A stretch of DNA of 42,099 bases from a virus (lineage: Duplodnaviria; Caudoviricetes): the IMG/VR virus record IMGVR_UViG_3300022670_001120, positions 1 to 42,099 of that record, one strand, 5' to 3'. The first letter of the stretch is position 1, and each line of letters opens with the position of its first letter. A program made the translations under genes and the position numbers. Below the pieces are notes generated by a model, which had not been told where the DNA came from, searched no databases, and saw only the letters and a program-made list of their open reading frames with translations. Positions 22,274 through 39,630 of the stretch are shown here, one piece after another.

Positions 22274-24265
22274 TCAGTTTTGAGAACTAATTACTTGTTT
22301 TTGGTAAAAGCGTTCTTGGATTAGAGCGTTTTTCATTTCACGCTCTTCTGCTAGAATTTCACTTATTGGTCTATCATCAGATGCAAATTCATTGAGTATT
22401 CCAACAGTTGAATCATTATTCACTAGGTGTGCATAATGTGTCTTTGATAGTAAATCAAATAGATGTAGTTCTGCACGTTCTGCTGCATCAATCATTCCTT
22501 GTTGTAATACTACATTATCTGCTCTACTTGTATGGGAGTATGGAGTAACATCTGGTACATAATTGGTTAGATCATCACCTTGAATTTGTTTGTAAGATGT
22601 GATATAACCAAACTGTTCTAGTGCACGTTTATTTTCATATTCTTTTAATTTGTAAAACTCTGAATGCAGTCTATCTATAATTGTTACAAGCTTATCTGGT
22701 GTATCTTCAAAGGTGCGATATACAATTGGAATGAATGTTTCAAAGGAGTTTTTCTGATATAATAGTACGGGTTCTGATTTATCCATAGCCATCCAGATAT
22801 CATGTTCTTTGTCCATTCTTTGAACGGTTTGTAACCCCTTGTATTTTATCTCAGATGGTATGTGTAGTATGGTAGGGAAGTTTAACGAATCCCCAATAAT
22901 ATCTAGTCCATCATTGAAATACAATATTTGATTTGCTCTATCATTATCAATTGCTTGGAGTGCAAGGACTTTACCTACTGGAGACTCGTTAAATGAAAAT
23001 TCTATTGATACACGATAACATGGTTCTGTGTTGTCATCAGCTACACACTTTACTTTACTTGAAGAGTATTCTAAACTTGTTGCATTAATTATTGGGGAAG
23101 TTTTGTGATCATTGATTTTAAACTCTATAGCATCCCCGTCATAGTTTGTATAAATTTCGATGCTTGCTTCTGCATCATACGCTTTACTAACTTCAGGAAC
23201 TCCAAAGATAAACTCCAGGAGATATAGTGTATGTGGTGCATATACTGTAGATGTAAAGTTTTGAATTACACCAACTGTCATATTTTGCATTGGGATTGGA
23301 GTATAGAAATTATCAGTTACAGTAAATATTTGACCATTAATTTCTAGTCCATTATCTACTCTTTGTACAAATGTCTTATGATCAAGCCCAAAGGTTGGTC
23401 TGGAGTTATGCTCATCATCAGAACCTCCATTACTAAGAATAGTGATGATTCCAGTATACACTTCAATTAATAATGAATATGCAGATTCAACGTGATTACT
23501 TTTAGATATCTCACCCAGGTTTAATCCAGGATAATTTATCATTCCAATGTCAACGTATTCATTATTTTCTATATACTCATATTTGCTACAATTATCTCCA
23601 TTAGTTCCATGAGCAATTATGCTGCCATTACTGCCACTTTTATCAATGAATAGTACACTACCAACCTGCTTATTACAGGACCATTGCACCTGATCAGTGC
23701 CATCATCGAGAACACCATTAACCAAAGCCTCATTTGGTGAATAAACAACAAAGACTTCATCAATTCTAACACTCTCACTTAGCGAATATGTTGTTACATC
23801 GTCAGTTGCATAAAATGTTAGAAAAATTAGAAGGCTATCTAAATTGTATATGTTTAGTGGGGAATTCATTATAGTATCCAAATCAATTCTAAATGAATCA
23901 TTTTCACAATCCACTTCTTCTCCATATTGTCCAGAATTGGCAGCTATATCGATTAGTGTAGGAGCAGATGATATGGCTGAATAATAAATTGGAATGTAAT
24001 GACTAATCTTGGCTGGAGGTACGTGATCATTTGTTGCCCTATCCTGATATTCAATATCAGCTTTTATCACACATTTGTCACCAGGAGTCATTGTGTTAAA
24101 ATTCCAGCTAATCTGAATTTGGTTTGTACTATTGGTATAACTAGCATATGCGTTTGTTTGTGTTGGAGTATATTCTGTACCAGCACCTATTGCAAATGCA
24201 TCCTCAAATAAGATCCCAGAAGTTAGGATAATTGCAAACACTGTGAACAGCTTGTAATTTAACAT
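22274..24265 (-). CDS. Secreted modular surface protein, paralog A
   Basis: Signal peptide; C-terminal ~390 aa shared with 24613..27138. Confidence 0.75.
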   Translation of the reverse strand: MLNYKLFTVFAIILTSGILFEDAFAIGAGTEYTPTQTNAYASYTNSTNQIQISWNFNTMTPGDKCVIKADIEYQDRATNDHVPPAKISHYIPIYYSAISSAPTLIDIAANSGQYGEEVDCENDSFRIDLDTIMNSPLNIYNLDSLLIFLTFYATDDVTTYSLSESVRIDEVFVVYSPNEALVNGVLDDGTDQVQWSCNKQVGSVLFIDKSGSNGSIIAHGTNGDNCSKYEYIENNEYVDIGMINYPGLNLGEISKSNHVESAYSLLIEVYTGIITILSNGGSDDEHNSRPTFGLDHKTFVQRVDNGLEINGQIFTVTDNFYTPIPMQNMTVGVIQNFTSTVYAPHTLYLLEFIFGVPEVSKAYDAEASIEIYTNYDGDAIEFKINDHKTSPIINATSLEYSSSKVKCVADDNTEPCYRVSIEFSFNESPVGKVLALQAIDNDRANQILYFNDGLDIIGDSLNFPTILHIPSEIKYKGLQTVQRMDKEHDIWMAMDKSEPVLLYQKNSFETFIPIVYRTFEDTPDKLVTIIDRLHSEFYKLKEYENKRALEQFGYITSYKQIQGDDLTNYVPDVTPYSHTSRADNVVLQQGMIDAAERAELHLFDLLSKTHYAHLVNNDSTVGILNEFASDDRPISEILAEEREMKNALIQERFYQKQVISSQN

Positions 24266-24397: not shown

Positions 24398-24616
24398 TTA
24401 GATGTATTCTAAGTTTTTAGTACTAAATCCCCAGGATAGTTTACACTTGAGACAATAAAAAATTATGAGAATATCTGTTGTTTTTCTTATCATTCCCTCA
24501 TTGTGACATTTGTGGCACTTGTTGCCATATCCTAGAACTCTGAAAAAATTCTTGACAAATTCTAAACGTTGCTGAGGCGGTAACAATCTTTGTCTCATCC
24601 TGGTATATGGAGTCAT
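24398..24616 (-). CDS. Small Zn-finger protein, paralog of 27836..28051
   Basis: FF..LGYGNKCxKC...CxxC..W.F shared. Confidence 0.7.
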   Translation of the reverse strand: MTPYTRMRQRLLPPQQRLEFVKNFFRVLGYGNKCHKCHNEGMIRKTTDILIIFYCLKCKLSWGFSTKNLEYI

Positions 24617-27138
24617 TTTTGAGCAGCTATCACTTGTTTTAGGTATGCACGATCTTGGGTTAGAGTGTTTTTCATTTCACGTTCTTCTGCTAGAATTTCA
24701 TTAATTGGTCTATCATCAGAGGTAAACTCTTCTAATATTCCAACATAGGAGTTGTTCTTAACCAGGTGAGCATAATGGGTTTTTGATAGTAAGTCTAGTA
24801 AGTGTAGTTTGGCACGTTCTTCTGCATCAAGGATACCTTGTTGTAGAACTTTATCATCGGCTCTGCTTGTATGGATAACATTCATCTCTTCTGCCACATA
24901 TTTTGTAAGATCATCACCTTGAATTTGCTTGTAAGATGTTATGTACTGAAACTGCTCAATTGCACGTTTTGTTTCATAGTCTAATAATTTGTAAAACTCT
25001 GAATGCTCTCTATCCATAATTGTAACAAGCTCATCTGATTCAGGTACAAAGGTGCGATACTCTATTGGAATAAATGTCCCAAATGAGTTTTGCTGGTATA
25101 ATAGTACAGGTTCTGATTTATCCATAGCCAACCAGATATCATGTTCTTTGTCTACTCTCTGAATGGTTTGCAGTCCTTTGTATTTAATTTCTGAAACAAT
25201 TTGTTGTATGGTTGCCGGGTTTAATGAATCCCCAACAATGTCTAGTCCATCATTGAAATACAATATGTTGTTCATTCTCTTATAATCTATTGCCTGGAGT
25301 GCAAGGACTTTACCTACTGGAGACTCGTTAAATGAAAATTCTATTGATACTCGATAGCATGGCTCTGAGTTGTCATCAGCTACGCATTTTACTTTAGATG
25401 ATGCAAATTCCAGACTGGTTGCATTAATTATTGGTGAGTCATTGTACTCATTAATTTTAAAGTCTATAACCTCACCATCAAAGTTTGTGTAAATTTCTAT
25501 ACTAGATTCAGCTTCATCCCATTTGTCAATTGTTGGAATTCCAAAGAGAAATTCTGTGATGTATAGTGTGTGGGGAGCATATGCTGTAGCTGTAAAGTTT
25601 TGAGTTGCACCTACTTTTAGTTCAAGTAGATCCATTGGTGTGTAGAAATTATCAGTTACAGTATAGGTCTGATTATTAATTATTAATCCATTATCTACTC
25701 GTTGAACAAATGTCTTGTAATCAATTCCAAAGGTGGGTCTAGATTGGGACTCATCATCAGAACCACCAGCAGATGTGGCAGTAATACTACTTGCCCTTGT
25801 AATGGAGAATAGATGTATGGCACCAGAATTAGTTTCTCCTCCTGTATCATCTTGATGGGCAGATATTGCAATTATTGCGGTATCTCCAGAATCCCTCCAT
25901 AAGGCCATTCCATGACCAAACAGATCAGTTGCAGCAAATGGTGAAATAGCAGTTCTTGTATTTTCTGATTCATTTGATATCTTTTGAGATTCTTTTAGTG
26001 TATCATCAGCATTCAAATACAAAATATGTGCCTCGCCTGAAGTTGCAGCAGTATCATCTCCTGCCTCATTTCCCACTATAATATCATTAACTCCATCATT
26101 ATCCATATCTCCCAGTGATGCAACACCACTACCGAAAGATTCATCATTTGCAATACCAGCAATGGTACTACCTGCAATCTCAGTACTAGAAACAAAAGCA
26201 CCAGCAGCAGTCAAATTAACAATGAATACTGAGCCTCCACCATCACCATCAGCTTGGTTGCTAACAACAATTTTTGTGCCACTAATTGATGCACCATCAT
26301 CGATATACTCGCCAGTGTCAACTCCAATTGTATTTCCAGAAATTGGTGCAGCTGGATGACTGCTCACTGTGCCATCTGCATTCAAAAACAATACCCACAA
26401 GTCTGTAAAATTATCAGGATCACTGTTAGCACCTACAAGTAATTCGTTTTGCCCATCACCATTTAGATCAGTTGCAATTACTGGCCATCCAAAATTTGCA
26501 GTTCCTTGTTCTATGTATGCTCCATCCGCAGGATTAAATCCATTTCCATTTTCTGGGACAATTAATACACAGTTGTCAACTTTACCAGTAGTTTTTAATT
26601 CTAACATATACACGGCACCACTGTTGGCAGTGACTACAGCATTATCTGCATTCACATCATGATTATTGGAGTTTGCACCCAATGCAATGGTTGGTAATCC
26701 ATCACCATCCAAATCACCAACAAATGCTAATTGTTCTATAGATCCAAAATCTCTATTTGTACCATCACCTGCAATGCATCCAGCAGTTAATCCATTAGCT
26801 GTAGCATCCATGATAATGTTATTTGTACTTTTTACAGAGCCATCAGCATTCATAAATAAAATTAGAATGGAACCAAAATCATCAGCAGTATCTGCATCAT
26901 CACCAGCCTCATTATCAAAACCAAACATGATTGAAGCTAAATCAATTACTCCATCTGAATCTAAATCCCCAATTGCTTCTATCTGATAACCTAAATTATT
27001 ATTAAAATCAACAGCACCTGCAATGTCATCATTATCAATTTCTACTCTATCAGTTACAGTCTGGGCAGCATATGCAACAGAAACCACCATCATTCCAAAT
27101 GCAAATAAAAATATTAATTTTAATCTTGTATTAATCAT
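24613..27138 (-). CDS. Secreted FG-GAP/integrin-alpha-like repeat protein, paralog B
   Basis: Signal peptide; GDLDSDG, GDLDGDG, DLNGDG, GDMDNDG loops; FG..., SGAVY and SGAIH motifs. Confidence 0.8.
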   Translation of the reverse strand: MINTRLKLIFLFAFGMMVVSVAYAAQTVTDRVEIDNDDIAGAVDFNNNLGYQIEAIGDLDSDGVIDLASIMFGFDNEAGDDADTADDFGSILILFMNADGSVKSTNNIIMDATANGLTAGCIAGDGTNRDFGSIEQLAFVGDLDGDGLPTIALGANSNNHDVNADNAVVTANSGAVYMLELKTTGKVDNCVLIVPENGNGFNPADGAYIEQGTANFGWPVIATDLNGDGQNELLVGANSDPDNFTDLWVLFLNADGTVSSHPAAPISGNTIGVDTGEYIDDGASISGTKIVVSNQADGDGGGSVFIVNLTAAGAFVSSTEIAGSTIAGIANDESFGSGVASLGDMDNDGVNDIIVGNEAGDDTAATSGEAHILYLNADDTLKESQKISNESENTRTAISPFAATDLFGHGMALWRDSGDTAIIAISAHQDDTGGETNSGAIHLFSITRASSITATSAGGSDDESQSRPTFGIDYKTFVQRVDNGLIINNQTYTVTDNFYTPMDLLELKVGATQNFTATAYAPHTLYITEFLFGIPTIDKWDEAESSIEIYTNFDGEVIDFKINEYNDSPIINATSLEFASSKVKCVADDNSEPCYRVSIEFSFNESPVGKVLALQAIDYKRMNNILYFNDGLDIVGDSLNPATIQQIVSEIKYKGLQTIQRVDKEHDIWLAMDKSEPVLLYQQNSFGTFIPIEYRTFVPESDELVTIMDREHSEFYKLLDYETKRAIEQFQYITSYKQIQGDDLTKYVAEEMNVIHTSRADDKVLQQGILDAEERAKLHLLDLLSKTHYAHLVKNNSYVGILEEFTSDDRPINEILAEEREMKNTLTQDRAYLKQVIAAQK

Positions 27139-27181: not shown

Positions 27182-27308
27182 CGTATGAAATTAAGATATA
27201 CTGTGGGTTTGTAATACCTTGATTCATTACTTTAAGATGGTGTTAGTATTATTTATTGATGGATCGAATTTCCCATGAATGGAATATAAAAAACCAAAGT
27301 TGGGAAAT

Positions 27309-27849
27309 CGTAAGCCCAATATGGTTTTCAATTTCTTACTGACTCGTCGTATTACAATGGGTTTCAAACTTCTATTGACTCGTAAACTTTCCATGGTTTT
27401 CACTTTATTAGTGAACTCGTAATCCTCCTTTGGTTTTCACATGATGGGTGACTCGTTAGAGCATGTTGGTTTTCATTACTTTCATGACTCGTATGGGGAT
27501 TGTGGGTTTCATCCGTTTACTGACTCGCATTGGTTCAAAGGGTTTCAATGGGTATATGACTCGTAATCATCCCTGGGTTTCAGTCTTTCAGTGACTCGGT
27601 ATCTTCCTTGGGTTTCACATATTCTTTGACTCGTAATCTTATTGGGGGTTTCATGTTGTTCTATGACTCGTAATCTTGTTATGGGTTTCATGTTGTTCAA
27701 TGACTCGTAATCATACTGTGGGTTTCAAACATTTCGTGACTCGTTTGTGCTTAATGGGTTTCAATGGGTATATGACTCGTAATCCATGTATGGTTTTCAC
27801 ACTTACTATAACTCGTTCTCTCTCAATGGGTTTCATTATTTAGATGACT
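27309..27849 (-). ncRNA. TIGR-like guide RNA array, 15 units of 35-37 nt
   Basis: Minus-strand unit AGTCA-N9-TGAAA(C/A)CCA-N9-NACG; plus-strand TGACT (or variant) at 27340, 27376, 27412, 27449, 27485, 27521, 27557, 27592, 27627, 27664, 27701, 27737, 27773, 27809, 27845; downstream of a Nop-domain gene. Confidence 0.9.
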
Positions 27850-28051
27850 TCTTAACTCTCTTTGTTCCATTATTTATTGAACCCATATCAAATGACCAAT
27901 TATAATCACATGGTTCACAGTGGAAATTAATCAGGTTCCTTGTTATTTTATAAATGGTTCCCACCTTGAGACATTTTGTACATTTGTTACCATATCCCAA
28001 CATTATGAAAAACTCATCAAGGAGATCTGAATCTTCTTTAATTAGTTTCAT
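27836..28051 (-). CDS. Small Zn-finger protein (start revised to 28051)
   Basis: ATGA overlap with the tasA-like stop; CTKC...CEPC; the revised start aligns with paralog 24398..24616. Confidence 0.7.
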   Translation of the reverse strand: MKLIKEDSDLLDEFFIMLGYGNKCTKCLKVGTIYKITRNLINFHCEPCDYNWSFDMGSINNGTKRVKKSSK

Positions 28052-28863
28052 TCGTCTGTAAAGGCCTCCACCACTGAATGGCCCAACAGTTGTTTTGCAT
28101 ATGGTTCTGTAGCTTCTAATTTCTCTTGCCTTCTCCATGTTTGCCAAACATGTGCAAGAAATATTTTAGAAACTTTTCTTAATGCACGATTATGAATGTG
28201 TCCGTCATTGTATAATGTACGGCCATTCTTTACAATCTTTGTGGGATGTTCTTTTCTCTCCTTTCTTTTTATGGTATCATACAATTTACGATATTTTGAT
28301 TTAGCTGCTGATTGTTTCACAAATGACCCAGATGCCTTCCAAGCTAATACTTTGAGACGGTCATTCCAGTTTGATTGATATCCAATAATTCTTTTTTGTA
28401 GGATTGGTTCAGTTTTAGTTTGGCAAATAGGGCATGCTTCCATGGGGTGTAGCTTCTTTGCTTTCTTTCCTGTCTCATATTCTACTTCAAGATATGTTGG
28501 TTTCTTACATTGTGGGCAGAACCTATTCATCCCATACCCAGAATACTGCCACAAGCTAGACACATGATCAAACTTTCCTATATCATCAATGTATGAAATT
28601 AGTCCAGCAGCAATTAACGGTCCAATTCCCCTAATCTTTGAGAGATACTGTGTGTATAGTGCGTGGTTCTTTAGTTGTCTTACTATTAATTTTTCAATAT
28701 CTTTCTCAAATGCTCCAGCATTCTCCAATATTGTAGTAATTCCATATACTGAGAGTTCTTCTTTGGTTAGTGTGTTTTCTCTCTCTGATGCACCTATTCT
28801 TAATTGAGTTTGAATTCTCTGTGCCTGGAAATCATAGTAAATATCCACAAGATTTCTCAGCAA
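28048..28863 (-). CDS. tasA: TasA-like Nop-domain (IS110 C-terminal related) RNA-guided DNA-binding protein; may start at ATA 28989
   Basis: Coiled coil, LSKIRGIGPLIAAGLIS, HVSSLWQYSG, GHIHNRALRKVSKIFL; no RuvC or HNH domain; adjacent dual-repeat array. Confidence 0.8.
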   Translation of the reverse strand: MLRNLVDIYYDFQAQRIQTQLRIGASERENTLTKEELSVYGITTILENAGAFEKDIEKLIVRQLKNHALYTQYLSKIRGIGPLIAAGLISYIDDIGKFDHVSSLWQYSGYGMNRFCPQCKKPTYLEVEYETGKKAKKLHPMEACPICQTKTEPILQKRIIGYQSNWNDRLKVLAWKASGSFVKQSAAKSKYRKLYDTIKRKERKEHPTKIVKNGRTLYNDGHIHNRALRKVSKIFLAHVWQTWRRQEKLEATEPYAKQLLGHSVVEAFTDE

Positions 28864-28985
28864 AAAGTGTGGAATATCTACTGTATCTTCAAATGGAATT
28901 GGGACATCTTTAGTGGTCTTCTTTTTGGTCTTTGATTTGGTTTTCTTTTTAGTTACAACTTTTAGTGGAGCCTTCTTTTTTGCTG

Positions 28986-29849
28986 CTATTTCTTAACATC
29001 CCCTTTTGTTAGGTCTAGTCCTACCTTTGGAGCTGCAATGTCTATGATGTAATGATATATTCCACGCATTGCAAAGGTGTCTCTTTTTTCTGCAAGTTCT
29101 ATTACTTTGGGTGATTTGAGTAACAGTTTGCCGAGTTCTATCATTTTTTCATCTGGTACTTTATTTTCAAAGTATACTCTGAAAAAATTCCTTAAAATGG
29201 TGTAACGATAAAATGGTGATTCAGTATTTGTTGCTATCTGGTATAATACTGGTACAAAGAGTTTGACCTTCTTGGTGTCAAGAGATGTTATTCCCTGGAT
29301 AAAGTCATCAACAGCTACTGGTCTTACAGGTCTTATTGATGTGCTCTTTGCATAGTGTAGCCAGTTTAGAACAACAGCATAGCGAAACTTTGATACACTA
29401 TTGTAATGATCACATACCTCTCTTAGCTCATTGAAATATGAAATTCTTCCAGTATCTAGTGCTTTAAGATGGTCTCCAAGTGTTAGGGGTTTTCCCAAAT
29501 TTAGTCGTCTATAAATTTCGCGTTGATTCCCTCCAGTATAAATAAATAAAATTAGATCATATGCTAATAATCCATAATATTCTCTAGCATAACGCAATCC
29601 AGCAATTCTATGTTGTCCATCAATAATGTGATATTTTACTTTCTCAGTTCCTGAAACTACACGTAGTGTATTATCTACGAATTTGTTATCCATGATTGCG
29701 TTTGCGATTCTTCCGATTTTAGTAGGGGATATTTTCCTCTCAAATAATGCAGGTGCAAATGTTTTTTCTAAATCTTCGAGTTTAAAATCATTAAGATAAA
29801 CTATCTCTGCCTTTGGTGGCATGTATACAGTTGAACGTGTTTGGCTCAT
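28986..29849 (-). CDS. ParB/Srx-superfamily DGQHR protein
   Basis: FERKIS, IIDGQHRIAGL, YRRLNLGKPL. Confidence 0.75.
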   Translation of the reverse strand: MSQTRSTVYMPPKAEIVYLNDFKLEDLEKTFAPALFERKISPTKIGRIANAIMDNKFVDNTLRVVSGTEKVKYHIIDGQHRIAGLRYAREYYGLLAYDLILFIYTGGNQREIYRRLNLGKPLTLGDHLKALDTGRISYFNELREVCDHYNSVSKFRYAVVLNWLHYAKSTSIRPVRPVAVDDFIQGITSLDTKKVKLFVPVLYQIATNTESPFYRYTILRNFFRVYFENKVPDEKMIELGKLLLKSPKVIELAEKRDTFAMRGIYHYIIDIAAPKVGLDLTKGDVKK

Positions 29850-30475
29850 GTCAACTGCCCGGCTTCTTTAACATCTACAAAAAATATTGGAGGACAAATT
29901 GCCTCGTGTTTCTTGGAAATTTTCATTTTAAACTTGGATGGTGTGTGTACTTTTTGTTTGGGTGGTTTTGGTGCTCTTTTTGGTATCAATTTAGTCAAGC
30001 GTAAATACACCTTAAAAAAAGCTGGACCCCACCAAACAGCTGTAAGTATTGCAGCTCCAACTCCACACTGAATTGGACCAATAATTAGTGAGCCATCCCC
30101 ACCTCTAACCAAACTCATTAGTCCAAATGCAAAATTAATTGAAGAAGCAAAACCAATTGATATCCAAGTTCTCCTCCTAGAGTTTTTTCTTATCTGCTCT
30201 ATGGTCATTGGTTTTTTATTTTTAGTATGAGGGAACAATCTATACACATACAAAAATGGTAATGTAGTAACAGCTCCAACTATTGCTCTACAATATGGAC
30301 ACAAATTGACAGTCCTTGGGGTGTATTTGTAGATTAATTTGAAACTCTCTTTTGTTCCATCATAATTTTTTCCGGTTTCATCAAGATCAATCCTTGCATC
30401 CATGAAAAAGTTCTTGCCAAAAGAGTATAGGATCAGGCGATAGTGCCAAGAATTTTTATTGAAAATCAATGTCAA
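29846..30475 (-). CDS. Membrane protein
   Basis: 2-3 hydrophobic segments; SWHYRL and NLCPYCR motifs. Confidence 0.65.
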   Translation of the reverse strand: MTLIFNKNSWHYRLILYSFGKNFFMDARIDLDETGKNYDGTKESFKLIYKYTPRTVNLCPYCRAIVGAVTTLPFLYVYRLFPHTKNKKPMTIEQIRKNSRRRTWISIGFASSINFAFGLMSLVRGGDGSLIIGPIQCGVGAAILTAVWWGPAFFKVYLRLTKLIPKRAPKPPKQKVHTPSKFKMKISKKHEAICPPIFFVDVKEAGQLT

Positions 30476-31371: not shown

Positions 31372-31614
31372 ATGAAGACGATTAAAAGGATTCACTGGGA
31401 GGTAGTCATACTCATCATTGAAAGTGTACTAGAAAATCCCAAAATATTACGCACGCCCCTAGCACAAAAATGCAATAGAAATTATCAACAGATGACAAGA
31501 TATCTTGAACAAATGGAATTAACAGAATTAATAATTCTTGTAGAAGAGAATAATAAAACTTTCATCAGGATTACTGAGCTTGGAAAAAGAGTTTTACTAA
31601 AATCAAAAGACTGA
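31372..31614 (+). CDS. Archaeal winged-helix regulator, candidate repressor
   Basis: RTPLAQKCNRNYQQMTRYLEQMEL...IRITELGKRVL. Confidence 0.8.
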   Translation: MKTIKRIHWEVVILIIESVLENPKILRTPLAQKCNRNYQQMTRYLEQMELTELIILVEENNKTFIRITELGKRVLLKSKD

Positions 31615-31677
31615 CAATAGAAATCAGTCTTTCTAAAAGTAGTTTATCATTATAATCCGTACAATTAGAATTTCATT

Positions 31678-32127: not shown

Positions 32128-32222
32128 CCAAACTTTTTCTCTTTTTTTTCTAAACACTACCAATAGGAATAAGTCCTTGAGAAAGTAGTTTCTCATTATT
32201 ATCTATAGATTGTACAATTTGA

Positions 32223-32665: not shown

Positions 32666-32924
32666 GAATTACATGCTTGAAATTCCAACACGTAGATTCA
32701 GCGATACCATGTTTGTATTGGGAATAATATTTTGTGTAATTGCATCTCTTTGGTTTTTGATGGCATTTCTCAGTAGTCTAAGTTATAGAGGTCCGGATCT
32801 AAATCTTGGTCTTTCACTTGTTTTTTTATTATTTACTATATTTTTAATGGCTGTTGGAAATAAGAAAGTAGTTGATCCTGATTATTTAATTACATTTCTA
32901 AGAGATTTTAACAAAAAAGACTAA
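32640..32924 (+). CDS. Two-TM membrane protein
   Basis: Two hydrophobic helices. Confidence 0.65.
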   Translation: MSHADSIVENYMLEIPTRRFSDTMFVLGIIFCVIASLWFLMAFLSSLSYRGPDLNLGLSLVFLLFTIFLMAVGNKKVVDPDYLITFLRDFNKKD

Positions 32925-33002
32925 CAACAGGAAGACGTCCTATACAGAGTAGTTATTCATTATAATAATTATTTTTCATAAAATCTGTTCAGACTATAAA
33001 TA

Positions 33003-33206: not shown

Positions 33207-33454
33207 AACCCAAATCACTTAAAGTTCTGCAAAAAGAAATTAAAAAAATATTAAAATTATATTTAGATTTAAAGGAACTCCAAGAAAATTGGAGTAAGGG
33301 AGGCAGTGATATGCCAAATAAAATGAATGAATCATTTTGTCGTTTGATTGAATACGAGTTCTACACATTACTCACAATTCTAAAAATTGAGGAACCAGAA
33401 ATCTATGAGAAAGATTGGAAAGAGTTACACATGAAATCAAAAGACTACCAATAG
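33203..33454 (+). CDS. Hypothetical protein
   Basis: Ends inside a cassette repeat. Confidence 0.55.
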   Translation: MKPKSLKVLQKEIKKILKLYLDLKELQENWSKGGSDMPNKMNESFCRLIEYEFYTLLTILKIEEPEIYEKDWKELHMKSKDYQ

Positions 33455-33586
33455 GAAGACGTACTGTGCAGAGTAGTTATTCATTATACATTGCAATTGT
33501 ACGATTAATCATTGAATACTAGCAATCATAGTAAGTATAACTGCCCACAGTCAAACTAGTCACAAGTTAGTATTCAATTTCCCCAA

Positions 33587-34274: not shown

Positions 34275-36059
34275 CTAACGTCTCTTCCTTGCAGGTGTAA
34301 TCCTAAATGCATCTTCGTGATAGTTTTGATCAGCAATTAGACAGTAGATGATACTCATAACACTATCTGGTGGATGGTTGTATTCTTTGCGGGCCTTTTG
34401 TCTTGGGTCCTCTATTCTAACTTCCTGTACTGGGTCTAAATCTTTTCTAGTAATTGATGTCATATCATCTAGTAGGAAATCAGTCTCCCAGTCATTTTTG
34501 GCTGGTATCATGAATACAGTCTTGTTTAGTTTTTCTTCAGTTGGTCTTTTTGGATGCGCTACTGTTTGGCCAATAAAGTTTACAAAGTTTTGAATGATTG
34601 TAGTTTTATCTACTTGGAGTGATGCATACTCTATTCCCTTCTCATCTGTCTTTTGCGCTGAATCCAGTTCGGGCCTCGTTTCATCTCCATGTGTTCTGCA
34701 TCCAACAAATCTCTTTCTTCCGATTCCTTTGAATTTCTGGTCTTTAGAATCTCTACCCCCGTCTTGAATGAATCTAATCTGGTCTTGGCCGTATCCCCAA
34801 TCCCCCACTGCAAACTCAACACCATACTCTGAAAACATCCCCGCGATGTGTCTACTTTGATCTCCAGGATGCTCTTGAGGTCTTTGGTCAATATTAGCGA
34901 GCAGATAACGATTTGACTTTCTGAACCTGATGAGAACGGAAGCCACGGTTTGAGACGCAGCAGGGCCTGAACCAAAGTCTACTCCCCCCAGGATTCTAAC
35001 TTCATTTTGATGAGTTGCTTTAATCTCTCTAACTTCGTCGGGTCGTAGTAAACCCAAATATCTGATGTAACATCGCTGGACCATTTCAGGAGTAATTGGA
35101 CGTCGTTCTGCTTTGTAGAACTCACCAAGTGTATGTGATGTATACATGGACAGGGGATAGTGCTTCCGCTGATACTCAATTGATAGTTCTGGTTGAGTTT
35201 GATATTTTTCGATAGCATCAATAATAGTAAGCGGAATGGATGGAAAAATCGTCTGTGGAAAGTGATAACCTCTGTAATTGACATTCTCTGGAGCTTGTGG
35301 TATCCATTTGCCAGATAAGATCTTCTTTAGTTCATCAAGATGATTTGTAATTATTCCTATTCCATCAAATAATAGATTCTCTCTCCAGTAAGGATCATCA
35401 TAAATCCATTCTCTCTGGTCTGTTCTCTTCCACATTTTGTAGTAATCAGACCCAGCTTCACCACCAATTCCAAATGCTCGAAACTTTCCTTTGGTAGCTG
35501 ATAAGGAATACATTGCAACCGGTAAAAATCCAACGTCTTGAGCTTGGGTCTCATCTAAAATTAAAATTCGATTAGACTTTCCCTCTACCTTATGGTATTT
35601 GTTCTCATCAGTTACTAGATAGATAACACTACCATTATTGATTCGAATCCTACCAACTGATGCCTTACCACCAGGAAGAAATGGCCTTAGTCTATTATTA
35701 CTAAGAAACACTTCGTTTCTCAATCGTTGTTCAGAGAATGCTCCCTTGTGTTCCTCATCATCTGCAACATATGTAACCTCACATCCAGCTTGCTGAAGTG
35801 CAGCCCAGGCAATCATACTACCAGAGTTTGTGGTCTTGTAGGTTTGTCTGCCATTAACAAACATGATGTTGGGATGGTTATCGAGTAATGGCTCTATCCA
35901 GAATGGTGATAAATCAAAAGAGCGAACTCTCTTTCCTATCATTGGTTGATACTCACTCATAAAGTCAATGAGATTATTTGGGATAGCACCACTAACTGTT
36001 GCAATCTTTGCTTCGAGTAGTTCTTCTAGTTCTTTGATTTTATCAATCCTACGTAGCAA
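34275..36059 (-). CDS. terL: Terminase large subunit
   Basis: Walker A GRQTYKTT, Walker B ILILDE, nuclease GVDFG and HPPDS. Confidence 0.9.
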   Translation of the reverse strand: MLRRIDKIKELEELLEAKIATVSGAIPNNLIDFMSEYQPMIGKRVRSFDLSPFWIEPLLDNHPNIMFVNGRQTYKTTNSGSMIAWAALQQAGCEVTYVADDEEHKGAFSEQRLRNEVFLSNNRLRPFLPGGKASVGRIRINNGSVIYLVTDENKYHKVEGKSNRILILDETQAQDVGFLPVAMYSLSATKGKFRAFGIGGEAGSDYYKMWKRTDQREWIYDDPYWRENLLFDGIGIITNHLDELKKILSGKWIPQAPENVNYRGYHFPQTIFPSIPLTIIDAIEKYQTQPELSIEYQRKHYPLSMYTSHTLGEFYKAERRPITPEMVQRCYIRYLGLLRPDEVREIKATHQNEVRILGGVDFGSGPAASQTVASVLIRFRKSNRYLLANIDQRPQEHPGDQSRHIAGMFSEYGVEFAVGDWGYGQDQIRFIQDGGRDSKDQKFKGIGRKRFVGCRTHGDETRPELDSAQKTDEKGIEYASLQVDKTTIIQNFVNFIGQTVAHPKRPTEEKLNKTVFMIPAKNDWETDFLLDDMTSITRKDLDPVQEVRIEDPRQKARKEYNHPPDSVMSIIYCLIADQNYHEDAFRITPARKRR

Positions 36060-36423: not shown

Positions 36424-37263
36424 TTAAGGAATGTAGGAAGGCAATACTTCACTAATCATTACATTCCAAATCAAGTGGATGGACTTTTGTGAACCTTGCA
36501 TGTTCAACAATATTCCTCTTACTTTCTCGTTTTTCTCAAGCTTCATACCAATTGCCATAAAATCAGCTTCAAGATCTGGGTAATCATGAGTAAGTCTGAC
36601 CATATTTCTAAACATTGGAGATTTTGAAAGATGAGTACTTTTCAAAGTTTCACCGTTTGCCTTTACTGCTTCTATTGCCAAAGTGACTGCTTTACTCTCT
36701 TGGGGAGTTATGCTAAGGAATAAATCCCTTGTTTCTGTTCTGTAACTCGCTATAGATTGTGCACTATTGTTTCTTACATACAATATTGCCATCAATGCAT
36801 CTGCATAGCAAAATTCAGTCTTGCTTCGGTAGTGATTCATGAATTTCCTATTCTCTTCAAAGTATGGAACGGTACCATCGTCTAGTGCTTTTGTGAAATC
36901 CCTTACAGTTAATGCTCTTCCTGAGTTGGAATTTACATATGCTTCTCTTTCTAATTTCTTGTCAAAAATATGAAGTACCAAATGAAATGTTTTTACTCCA
37001 TAGTCTTTGTAAGCCATTTTCAAAGCTTCTAGTCTGTGTTGTCCATCAAAGATTGAATATCTGTTCTCACCGATTTTGGTTCCCATAATAGTGTGGTTGT
37101 GCATCTTTTCTGAGATTATAGATTCTAGAATTTTGTTCACACTTGAAATATTTACCTTTCTCTCAAATTCTGCATATTCAAACATCTCAGATATTTTTGA
37201 CAAATCAAAGTTATCCAATTGAATAATGCTGAAGTCTTTTTGTGATTGTGTTTTCATAGTCAT
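36424..37263 (-). CDS. Second ParB/Srx-superfamily DGQHR protein
   Basis: FERKVN, IFDGQHRLEAL, NSGRALT..D..KALDDG; aligns with 28986..29849. Confidence 0.75.
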   Translation of the reverse strand: MTMKTQSQKDFSIIQLDNFDLSKISEMFEYAEFERKVNISSVNKILESIISEKMHNHTIMGTKIGENRYSIFDGQHRLEALKMAYKDYGVKTFHLVLHIFDKKLEREAYVNSNSGRALTVRDFTKALDDGTVPYFEENRKFMNHYRSKTEFCYADALMAILYVRNNSAQSIASYRTETRDLFLSITPQESKAVTLAIEAVKANGETLKSTHLSKSPMFRNMVRLTHDYPDLEADFMAIGMKLEKNEKVRGILLNMQGSQKSIHLIWNVMISEVLPSYIP

Positions 37264-39173: not shown

Positions 39174-39400
39174 TTGACCACCACTTGCTCAGATTTAACA
39201 AGCGGGATATAGCCATCAGCAGTCTCCTCATTACATCTCTCACAGGTAAAATCCCCTTGAGTTTCAGGGTTTACCGGATGGACAGTGAGATGGTCAGGGA
39301 GTCCTAATCCTTTGACTAATTTTGTATTCTTCAACATAAACTCTGAAAGTGTACCAAAGCACCTAGAGCATATGAAGAATTTATCTTCACGTGTTTGCAT
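39170..39400 (-). CDS. Small Zn-finger protein
   Basis: CSRC...CERC; motif variant TAGTTCCCT 26 nt upstream. Confidence 0.6.
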   Translation of the reverse strand: MQTREDKFFICSRCFGTLSEFMLKNTKLVKGLGLPDHLTVHPVNPETQGDFTCERCNEETADGYIPLVKSEQVVVK

Positions 39401-39470
39401 AGTCTGAACGATTCCTATACACTAAAGGGAACTAAAAAGGGATCGATCTAGAGTTTTTCTAAATTTTACA

Positions 39471-39488
39471 AGTATCTCATGAGATACA
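39471..39488. promoter_or_regulatory. 18-bp palindromic operator
   Basis: agtatctcatgagataca (16-bp perfect core). Confidence 0.7.
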
Positions 39489-39504
39489 GAGTTTTCTGAA
39501 CGTG

Positions 39505-39578
39505 AAGAGTGGCGTGATAGCCAGGCCCTCATAATTGTTCAGACTATGAAAACTGAACTGACTACCACGCCAATCTCA
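39505..39578 (-). ncRNA. Candidate structured small antisense RNA
   Basis: 15-bp stem (39510-39524/39558-39572) fully closed by G-U pairs on the minus strand; inner hairpin; TTTATAA about 25 nt upstream. Confidence 0.6.
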
Positions 39579-39630
39579 TTCATACTTTAACATGTTATAA
39601 ACTTAATCAGAATTTCCCTAGTGTGGGAAG

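What the first reader, a model, noticed from the sequence alone, without database searches (positions are those of the whole stretch)
28986..29849. DGQHR/ParB-like gene coupled to tasA: candidate effector
The gene directly upstream of the nuclease-less Tas has the ParB/Srx/DndB-type DGQHR motif. Inference: an RNA-guided Tas could replace parS and load a spreading clamp for partitioning or silencing at programmable sites.
Basis: inference. Interest (0 to 1): 0.75.

Follow-up and report, generated by a model that had tools for sequence, protein, structure and literature searches.

The report
ParB-like partner of viral TIGR-TasA
A tailed virus, likely of ammonia-oxidising archaea, carries a ParB-like gene overlapping a nuclease-free RNA-guided DNA-binding gene and its guide array; this pairing was published in 2025, and the ParB-like protein likely helps silence other genomes' genes rather than partition the virus's own DNA.

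Summary
ORF 28986-29849 (-) encodes 287 aa with DGQHR and a ParB/Srx-fold N-domain. It overlaps a nuclease-less TasA gene that is followed by a 15-unit TIGR array. TasA follows this clade in 19 of 19 informative loci. The frames overlap in 18 of 19 junctions, and the pair also sits in an otherwise largely unrelated virus. The pairing is published as tasParB (Faure 2025), and this scan saw it before on other DNA. The partition reading is poorly supported: no ParA motif in 8 virus records, no ParA-binding motif, and no guide matching its own or related viruses above control. Silencing remains plausible but unshown. TasA alone represses in E. coli (2026 preprint), paralogues occur without tasA, no fusion was found, and the complex prediction could not be run. 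New here: 54 of 141 guides recur across different viruses, and their inferred targets lean to one coding orientation (post hoc). No natural target was found. Verdict: new member of a known kind, mechanism open; interest 0.33.

The parts
28986..29849 (-). DGQHR / ParB-Srx-fold gene, 287 aa (tasParB-type): N-domain about 16-121, helical C-domain about 135-280
29607..29621 (-). DGQHR motif (GxxR-type phosphate-binding box); ER37-38 at 29736-29741 and YRRLN113-117 at 29499-29513 complete the DGQHR-domain signature
28048..28989 (-). tasA, 313 aa from a probable ATA start overlapping the upstream stop by 4 nt: Lys-rich tail, Nop domain, invariant CxxC...CxxC insert, conserved C-terminal Tyr/His pair; no nuclease domain
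27304..27853 (-). Dual-repeat TIGR array: 14 complete units of 35-37 nt plus a terminal unit with a decayed last repeat; edge repeat mostly TACGAGTCA, loop repeat TGAAACCCA, spacers 8-10 nt
   Evidence: TaTIGR repeats and guide geometry
29846..30475 (-). 209-aa predicted membrane protein whose stop overlaps the DGQHR start (ATGA); same operon here but its position varies in relatives
36424..37263 (-). Second DGQHR paralogue (279 aa, 30% identical over 239 aa), just upstream of a 94-aa ORF and terL, not next to tasA

Best explanation
The gene encodes a ParB/Srx-fold protein that overlaps the gene for a nuclease-free TasA and is likely a nucleotide-switched co-repressor, which TasA and its guide RNAs would bring to genes of the host or of rival mobile elements to strengthen silencing. 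Shown here: the fold, the conserved motifs, the strict linkage, the frame overlap, guides shared between viruses, and the lack of ParA and of self-targets. From the literature: TasA-guide complexes bind DNA and repress transcription, phage ParB-DUF6551 fusions bind CTP or ATP, and KorB acts as a CTPase clamp co-repressor with KorA. Inferred: co-translation, contact with TasA, nucleotide gating, and foreign-gene targets. Whether it spreads as a clamp is untested.
For: TasA follows the gene in 19 of 19 informative loci (12 viral, 7 metagenome); all 13 viral contigs with this TasA clade carry the gene or its last codons upstream. Frames overlap in 18 of 19 junctions, by an ATA/TAG 4-nt overlap in 8 loci plus the window or a TTG start about 20-26 nt upstream of the stop in 9 loci. 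The pair sits away from terL in the window and G304, and in G306, a terminal-repeat virus with no match to the window's capsid, portal or terminase. TasA-linked proteins form one clade (17 rows, SH-aLRT 97, quick tree). 54 of 141 9+9 guides recur across loci (80 pairs vs 0.3 shuffled), consistent with stable external targets. The inferred target strand scores as coding-sense in 61 of 97 guide families (p 0.014, post hoc). The best structural match is KorB (abstract of PMC11790492). TasA repression. NTP binding by ParB-DUF6551 fusions; Atlas resemblance of the C-part to DUF6551 clusters, score 0.92.
Against: TasA represses without any partner in E. coli (those TasA were stem-loop type). The family occurs without tasA: the window's own paralogue, G308's paralogue, L035 and L036. 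No ParB-TasA fusion among longer TasA homologues (1 hit, an intein-bearing TasA). Distance correlation parB~tasA (rho 0.30, p 0.086) is no stronger than parB~terL (0.44, p 0.029) in the 11 loci with all three genes. No HTH or C-terminal dimerisation domain was identified. No natural target was found in viral or Nitrosopumilus-family searches.
Confidence: 0.4

Rival explanations
1. Co-expressed but physically independent: a general DGQHR protein of these archaeal viruses (for example a DndB-like repressor of its own operon, or a packaging-region factor) that became locked to tasA by gene overlap.
For: Paralogues without tasA lie just upstream of terL in the window and L036. The linked gene follows terL directly in most relatives. 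No specific co-evolution signal. DndB is described as an ATP-dependent repressor of its own operon (passage). TasA works alone.
Against: The linkage survives separation from terL (window, G304, G306), and the overlap is kept with two different start-codon geometries.
Confidence: 0.3
2. Enzymatic effector: a nucleotide-dependent catalytic or sensing domain (GmrS/SspE/DndI/Srx-like) that acts on DNA or proteins at the TasA-bound site, supplying the activity that a fused nuclease gives TasR and TasH.
For: Structural matches include BrxU (Z 7.4, rmsd 9.0 over 242), DndBCDE-DndI entry 9jfl (Z 6.3), Srx (Z 6.2) and SspE (Z 5.0). Weak GmrSD_N and DndB Pfam hits in relatives. Conserved R110, D126, H148, R220, R224 outside the core motif.
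Against: No nuclease domain or motif was identified in the C-domain. The long matches have high rmsd.
Confidence: 0.2
3. One reading: TasA marks a site on the viral DNA as a programmable parS and loads a ParB clamp for segregation.
For: ParB/Srx fold; the virus has an integrase, so a temperate stage is plausible.
Against: No ParA-type Walker-A motif in 8 virus records, three of them rated 100% complete. No ParA-binding motif (definition). No self- or cross-virus target above control: 31 matches at <=2 mismatches vs 21-32 in three controls, none perfect. The window itself may be an incomplete genome (no end repeat).
Confidence: 0.06

Closest known systems
tasParB-tasA-TIGR operons (Faure et al. 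2025, Science, PMC12045711, Discussion and methods section 44)
   Same: ParB-like gene in an operon with nuclease-less tasA; dual-repeat arrays upstream or downstream; variable flanks. Twelve close relatives of this TasA are rows of that paper's Table S1 (node27591).
   Different: The paper's text gives 10-nt repeats for tasParB loci; here both repeats are 9 nt and near-identical to TaTIGR's. Fig. S14 and any TasParB sequence could not be seen, so it is open whether this is the same ParB-like clade or a second recruitment.
TaTIGR-TasR (PDB 9MTY)
   Same: Nop domain (E 1e-29; Foldseek E 6e-13), 36-nt units, same loop repeat and a similar edge repeat.
   Different: No RuvC; a Lys-rich tail and an invariant four-Cys insert instead; an overlapping partner gene.
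KorB-KorA of plasmid RK2 (PMC11790492, abstract read)
   Same: ParB-fold N-domain (best VIA-align row, Z 8.2); a working precedent for a ParB-family clamp acting as co-repressor with a DNA-bound partner.
   Different: KorB loads at its own operator through an HTH domain and uses CTP; no HTH, operator, dimerisation domain or nucleotide preference is established here, and only 91 residues align.
Orphan phage ParB-CTPase-fold proteins, ParB-DUF6551 fusions and DndB/DGQHR domains (PMC12704722, PMC4619093; passages read)
   Same: DGQHR, xR pair and [FY]xxxN motifs; no ParA-binding motif; viral; C-part resembles DUF6551 clusters.
   Different: No Pfam family reaches its cut-off for this protein; this clade is tied to an RNA-guided partner.

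Membership tests
TIGR-TasA (dual repeat) | Nop-domain Tas protein | tested here: met
TIGR-TasA (dual repeat) | No RuvC or HNH nuclease domain | tested here: met
   N-terminus is a 25-110 aa Lys-rich, low-pLDDT tail in 14 of 14 aligned loci
TIGR-TasA (dual repeat) | Array of alternating edge and loop repeats with about 9-nt spacers, 36-nt units | tested here: met
TIGR-TasA (dual repeat) | Processing to 36-nt guides and guided DNA binding | not testable with these tools
   The C-terminal Tyr/His pair is invariant in 62 of 62 rows (Y297, H304), matching the dyad described; no expression data examined
tasParB (Faure 2025) | parB-like gene consistently operonic with tasA | tested here: met
   19 of 19 informative loci; overlap in 18 of 19 junctions
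tasParB (Faure 2025) | Dual-repeat arrays up- or downstream with 10-nt repeats | tested here: inconclusive
   Arrays upstream (L002, L003) and downstream are present, but repeats parse as 9 nt; fig. S14 not readable
tasParB (Faure 2025) | Predicted C-terminal co-folding dimer and 2:2 complex with head-to-head TasA | not tested
   Complex prediction queue was full
tasParB (Faure 2025) | Sequence homology to the published TasParB proteins | not testable with these tools
   No ParB entry found in the four readable supplement files, Table S1 being cut
DGQHR domain / ParB-Srx fold | DGQHR pentapeptide, QR-type pair, FxxxN motif | tested here: met
   DGQHR77-81, ER37-38, YRRLN113-117
DGQHR domain / ParB-Srx fold | ParB/Srx fold | tested here: met
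   KorB Z 8.2 rmsd 2.7 over 91; PadC Z 7.7; nearly all top Foldseek rows are ParB, Noc or Srx
Canonical partition ParB (parABS) | ParA-binding motif and a parA gene in the element | tested here: not met
   No (L/F/I)G(K/R)G(L/F/I) motif; no KGGxGK(S/T) motif in 8 virus records
Canonical partition ParB (parABS) | Central HTH and C-terminal dimerisation domain | tested here: inconclusive
   Helical C-domain with no clear structural match; not folded alone
Canonical partition ParB (parABS) | CTP binding, clamp closure and sliding | not testable with these tools
   PMC12704722 reports that nucleotide preference is not predictable from sequence or AlphaFold3

The most novel reading that the evidence does not exclude
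These archaeal viruses recruited a DGQHR/DUF6551-like NTPase to TasA independently of the published tasParB loci, and TasA loads it at guide-specified, conserved genes of the host or of rival viruses, where it spreads and silences: a natural RNA-programmable sliding-clamp silencer.
Probability: 0.18. Interest if true: 0.8.

Novelty: new member of a known kind. Interest (0 to 1): 0.33.

Why it matters
The role of nuclease-free TasA partners and the natural targets of TIGR guides are both stated as open in the 2025 paper and the 2026 preprint. This clade offers a compact two-gene test case with repeats close to the validated TaTIGR, and a short list of guides kept across different viruses, which are the best candidates for finding real targets. 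If TasA loads an NTP-gated partner, it would be a programmable long-range silencer. The pairing itself is already in print, and nothing here shows the mechanism.

Tried and rejected
Complex prediction (TasA x2 + ParB-like): the queue was full on both tries; no result, no evidence either way. Self- or cross-virus targets: none above controls for 103 units or for 178 distinct pairs with 0-2 nt gaps. Viral collection scans with three recurring guides gave 6, 1 and 12 exact matches. The 12 lay in loci with no tblastn match to these viruses' ORFs; the 6 and the 1 looked unrelated from their translations only. By my rough estimate these counts are near chance. Nitrosopumilus-family genome samples: 0 of 151; 3 vs 2 control; 12 vs 7; 4 vs 0 (four scattered one-mismatch sites); 6 vs 7 (three in a UbiD-like gene, not accepted); one genome at 2 mismatches, 1 vs 2. 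Test that guide variation is synonymous in one frame: 26 of 51 vs null 23.9, p 0.24, rejected. TATA-box, Shine-Dalgarno and T-run enrichment in targets: none. Programmed frameshift fusion: rejected, because the tasA frame is -1 in some loci and +1 in others. Natural fusion: none found (weak evidence). Mirror-tree test: not specific. PDB sequence searches for the ParB-like profile gave no significant hit. A viral scan with the paralogue found nothing. The careful tree did not finish; the quick tree is reported. Alignment A2 was faulty and not used. The sigma-70 promoter scan is not suited to archaea and was not used.

Full report
Observation. The ORF at 28986-29849 (minus strand) encodes 287 aa with DGQHR at 77-81. 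It has 154 homologues at E<=0.001, the 120 listed being 60-79% identical apart from itself, and 214 clusters in the 50% library. R38, R81, R110 and N117 are invariant in 68 of 68 aligned rows. These match the QR pair, DGQHR and FxxxN features of DGQHR domains in PMC4619093 (passages). Pfam gave nothing for the protein; PHROGs gave a weak ParB-like hit. The AlphaFold2 model (pLDDT 86) matches KorB (Z 8.2, rmsd 2.7, residues 16-121), PadC, BrxU, Srx and Noc/ParB. The helical C-domain has no clear solved match; ESM Atlas places it near DUF6551 clusters (0.92) and the whole protein near unnamed viral clusters (0.97).

Neighbourhood. The next gene is a Tas protein (9MTY, E 1.1e-29; Foldseek 6e-13) without nuclease. 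Its frame is open through the apparent gap and carries a Lys-rich tail. It probably starts at an ATA overlapping the upstream TAG by 4 nt (inference from conservation: 8 loci plus the window; 9 other loci have a TTG about 20-26 nt upstream of the stop; L025 is the exception). It has an invariant four-Cys insert and the C-terminal Tyr/His pair. A 15-unit dual-repeat array follows at 27304-27853, with repeats close to TaTIGR's. The contig is a 42-kb virus record with terminase, probable major head protein, Dam methylase and integrase. The host is inferred: the only strong cellular match in the genome-collection scan (1 of 7 loci) and in 301 genomes of that family is a truncated 128-aa remnant in a Nitrosopumilus MAG.

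Linkage. TasA follows the gene in all 10 viral loci found with it and in 2 more found with TasA. The 13th TasA contig begins within the partner's last codons. Of 13 metagenome loci at >=55% identity, 6 show TasA by tblastn, 1 shows the start of its Lys-rich tail, 1 duplicates a viral locus and 5 end too early. That gives 19 of 19 informative loci; the host remnant lacks tasA. In most relatives the pair follows terL, but not in the window, G304 or G306; G306 shows no match to the window's capsid, portal or terminase. The linked proteins form one clade (17 rows, one of unknown context; SH-aLRT 97; quick tree). Outside it, the window's second DGQHR gene (30% identical), a paralogue in G308, L035 and L036 have no tasA beside them. 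Distances of the pair correlate weakly (rho 0.40, p 0.038, n 13), but no more than with terL. No fusion was found.

Guides. 186 units were parsed from 14 sources. 54 of 141 units with 9+9 spacers have a near-copy in another locus (80 pairs vs 0.3 in shuffles); one guide of the window recurs in 8 sources. Shared ancestry of arrays can explain part of this. The target geometry (spacer A then reverse complement of spacer B) was taken from Table S3 of Faure 2025. No guide matches its own or a related virus above controls, and targeted scans of viral contigs and Nitrosopumilus-family genomes stayed near chance. Post hoc, the strand reading spacer B forward scores as coding-sense in 61 of 97 families (p 0.014; true sense 18-mers score 68%) and carries more ATG than matched background (47 vs 30). 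This hints at oriented targeting of genes and needs independent data. A synonymous-variation test was negative.

Mechanism. Partition is unlikely: no ParA motif in 8 records, no ParA-binding motif, no self-target. TasA proteins bind DNA and repress transcription unaided (bioRxiv 2026.09.09.750476, parts 1-4 of 7 read; ParB is not mentioned). The overlap and strict linkage argue that the partner serves the TIGR function. KorB (abstract) gives a precedent for a ParB-fold co-repressor, and phage ParB-DUF6551 fusions bind CTP or ATP (PMC12704722, passages). I therefore favour an NTP-gated co-repressor recruited by TasA (0.40), over an independent co-expressed viral protein (0.30), a catalytic effector (0.20) and partition (0.06). 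Contact, nucleotide use and spreading are all inferred; the complex prediction could not be run.

Known status. Faure et al. 2025 (PMC12045711; sections 6, 7, 10, 44, passages, Table S1 part 1 and motif hits, Table S3 part 1 read) describe tasParB operons and an AlphaFold3 2:2 model, without experiments in the sections read. Twelve rows of their Table S1 are close relatives of this TasA. Their supplementary PDF with fig. S14 could not be read and bears directly on whether this is the same ParB-like clade; their text gives 10-nt repeats against 9 nt here. Three literature searches listed no other paper using the term TasParB or testing it. Also seen: passages of bioRxiv 2026.07.30.739390 and the abstract of 2026.08.11.744272. 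Earlier notes of this scan reached the same classification on other DNA; I had read the paper before seeing them.

Verdict. A real, well-conserved new member of a published arrangement. Interest 0.33.

Noticed in passing
protein P0391: A TasA of this clade interrupted by an insert of about 340 aa right after the conserved SSLWQY motif. The insert begins with Cys, ends in Asn before Cys and looks by eye like an endonuclease-bearing intein (recalled pattern; Pfam did not call it).
   Followed up: partly
window 28986-28989 and 8 related loci: Conserved ATA codon overlapping the upstream TAG by 4 nt, the geometry of an ATGA overlap; suggests ATA initiation by translational coupling. Gene callers miss the Lys-rich N-tail here.
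   Followed up: partly
window 27745 unit; G303, G304, G307, G308, L008, L023, L030: The same guide pair recurs in 8 sources, varying by transitions at three positions and freely at the last base of spacer A; target not found.
   Followed up: yes
G306:C1 about 39300-39620: A largely unrelated terminal-repeat virus carries the two genes with only a short decayed array, yet one guide is the same as in L004 and L023 (seen by eye).
   Followed up: partly
proteins P0130, P0142, P0148, P0153, P0169, P0175, P0204, P0210, P0212, P0218, P0244: 456-508 aa homologues with an unannotated N-terminal domain of about 200 aa fused to this DGQHR family; several have a degenerate DGQHR motif.
   Followed up: no
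window 34275-36059: The window's terL is about 50% diverged from ten relatives whose terL differ by only 3-19% among themselves, while its probable capsid protein is 72-74% identical to four of them: a likely module swap.
   Followed up: no
window 31605-31654, 32151-32200, 32915-32964, 33439-33488: Four copies of a 50-nt motif spaced 520-760 nt apart, each before small plus-strand ORFs: possibly a gene-cassette array inserted between terL and the DGQHR operon.
   Followed up: no
window 22274-24265 and 24613-27138: Two tandem paralogous genes (663 and 841 aa) sharing the N-terminal leader and C-terminal half but with different middle domains, one with FG-GAP repeats.
   Followed up: no
L045:7986-8372: Truncated 128-aa copy of the gene in a Nitrosopumilus MAG, among transposase genes and without tasA.
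   Followed up: partly
L009 / L017: tasA is broken by an apparent inversion or misassembly at the contig end.
   Followed up: no
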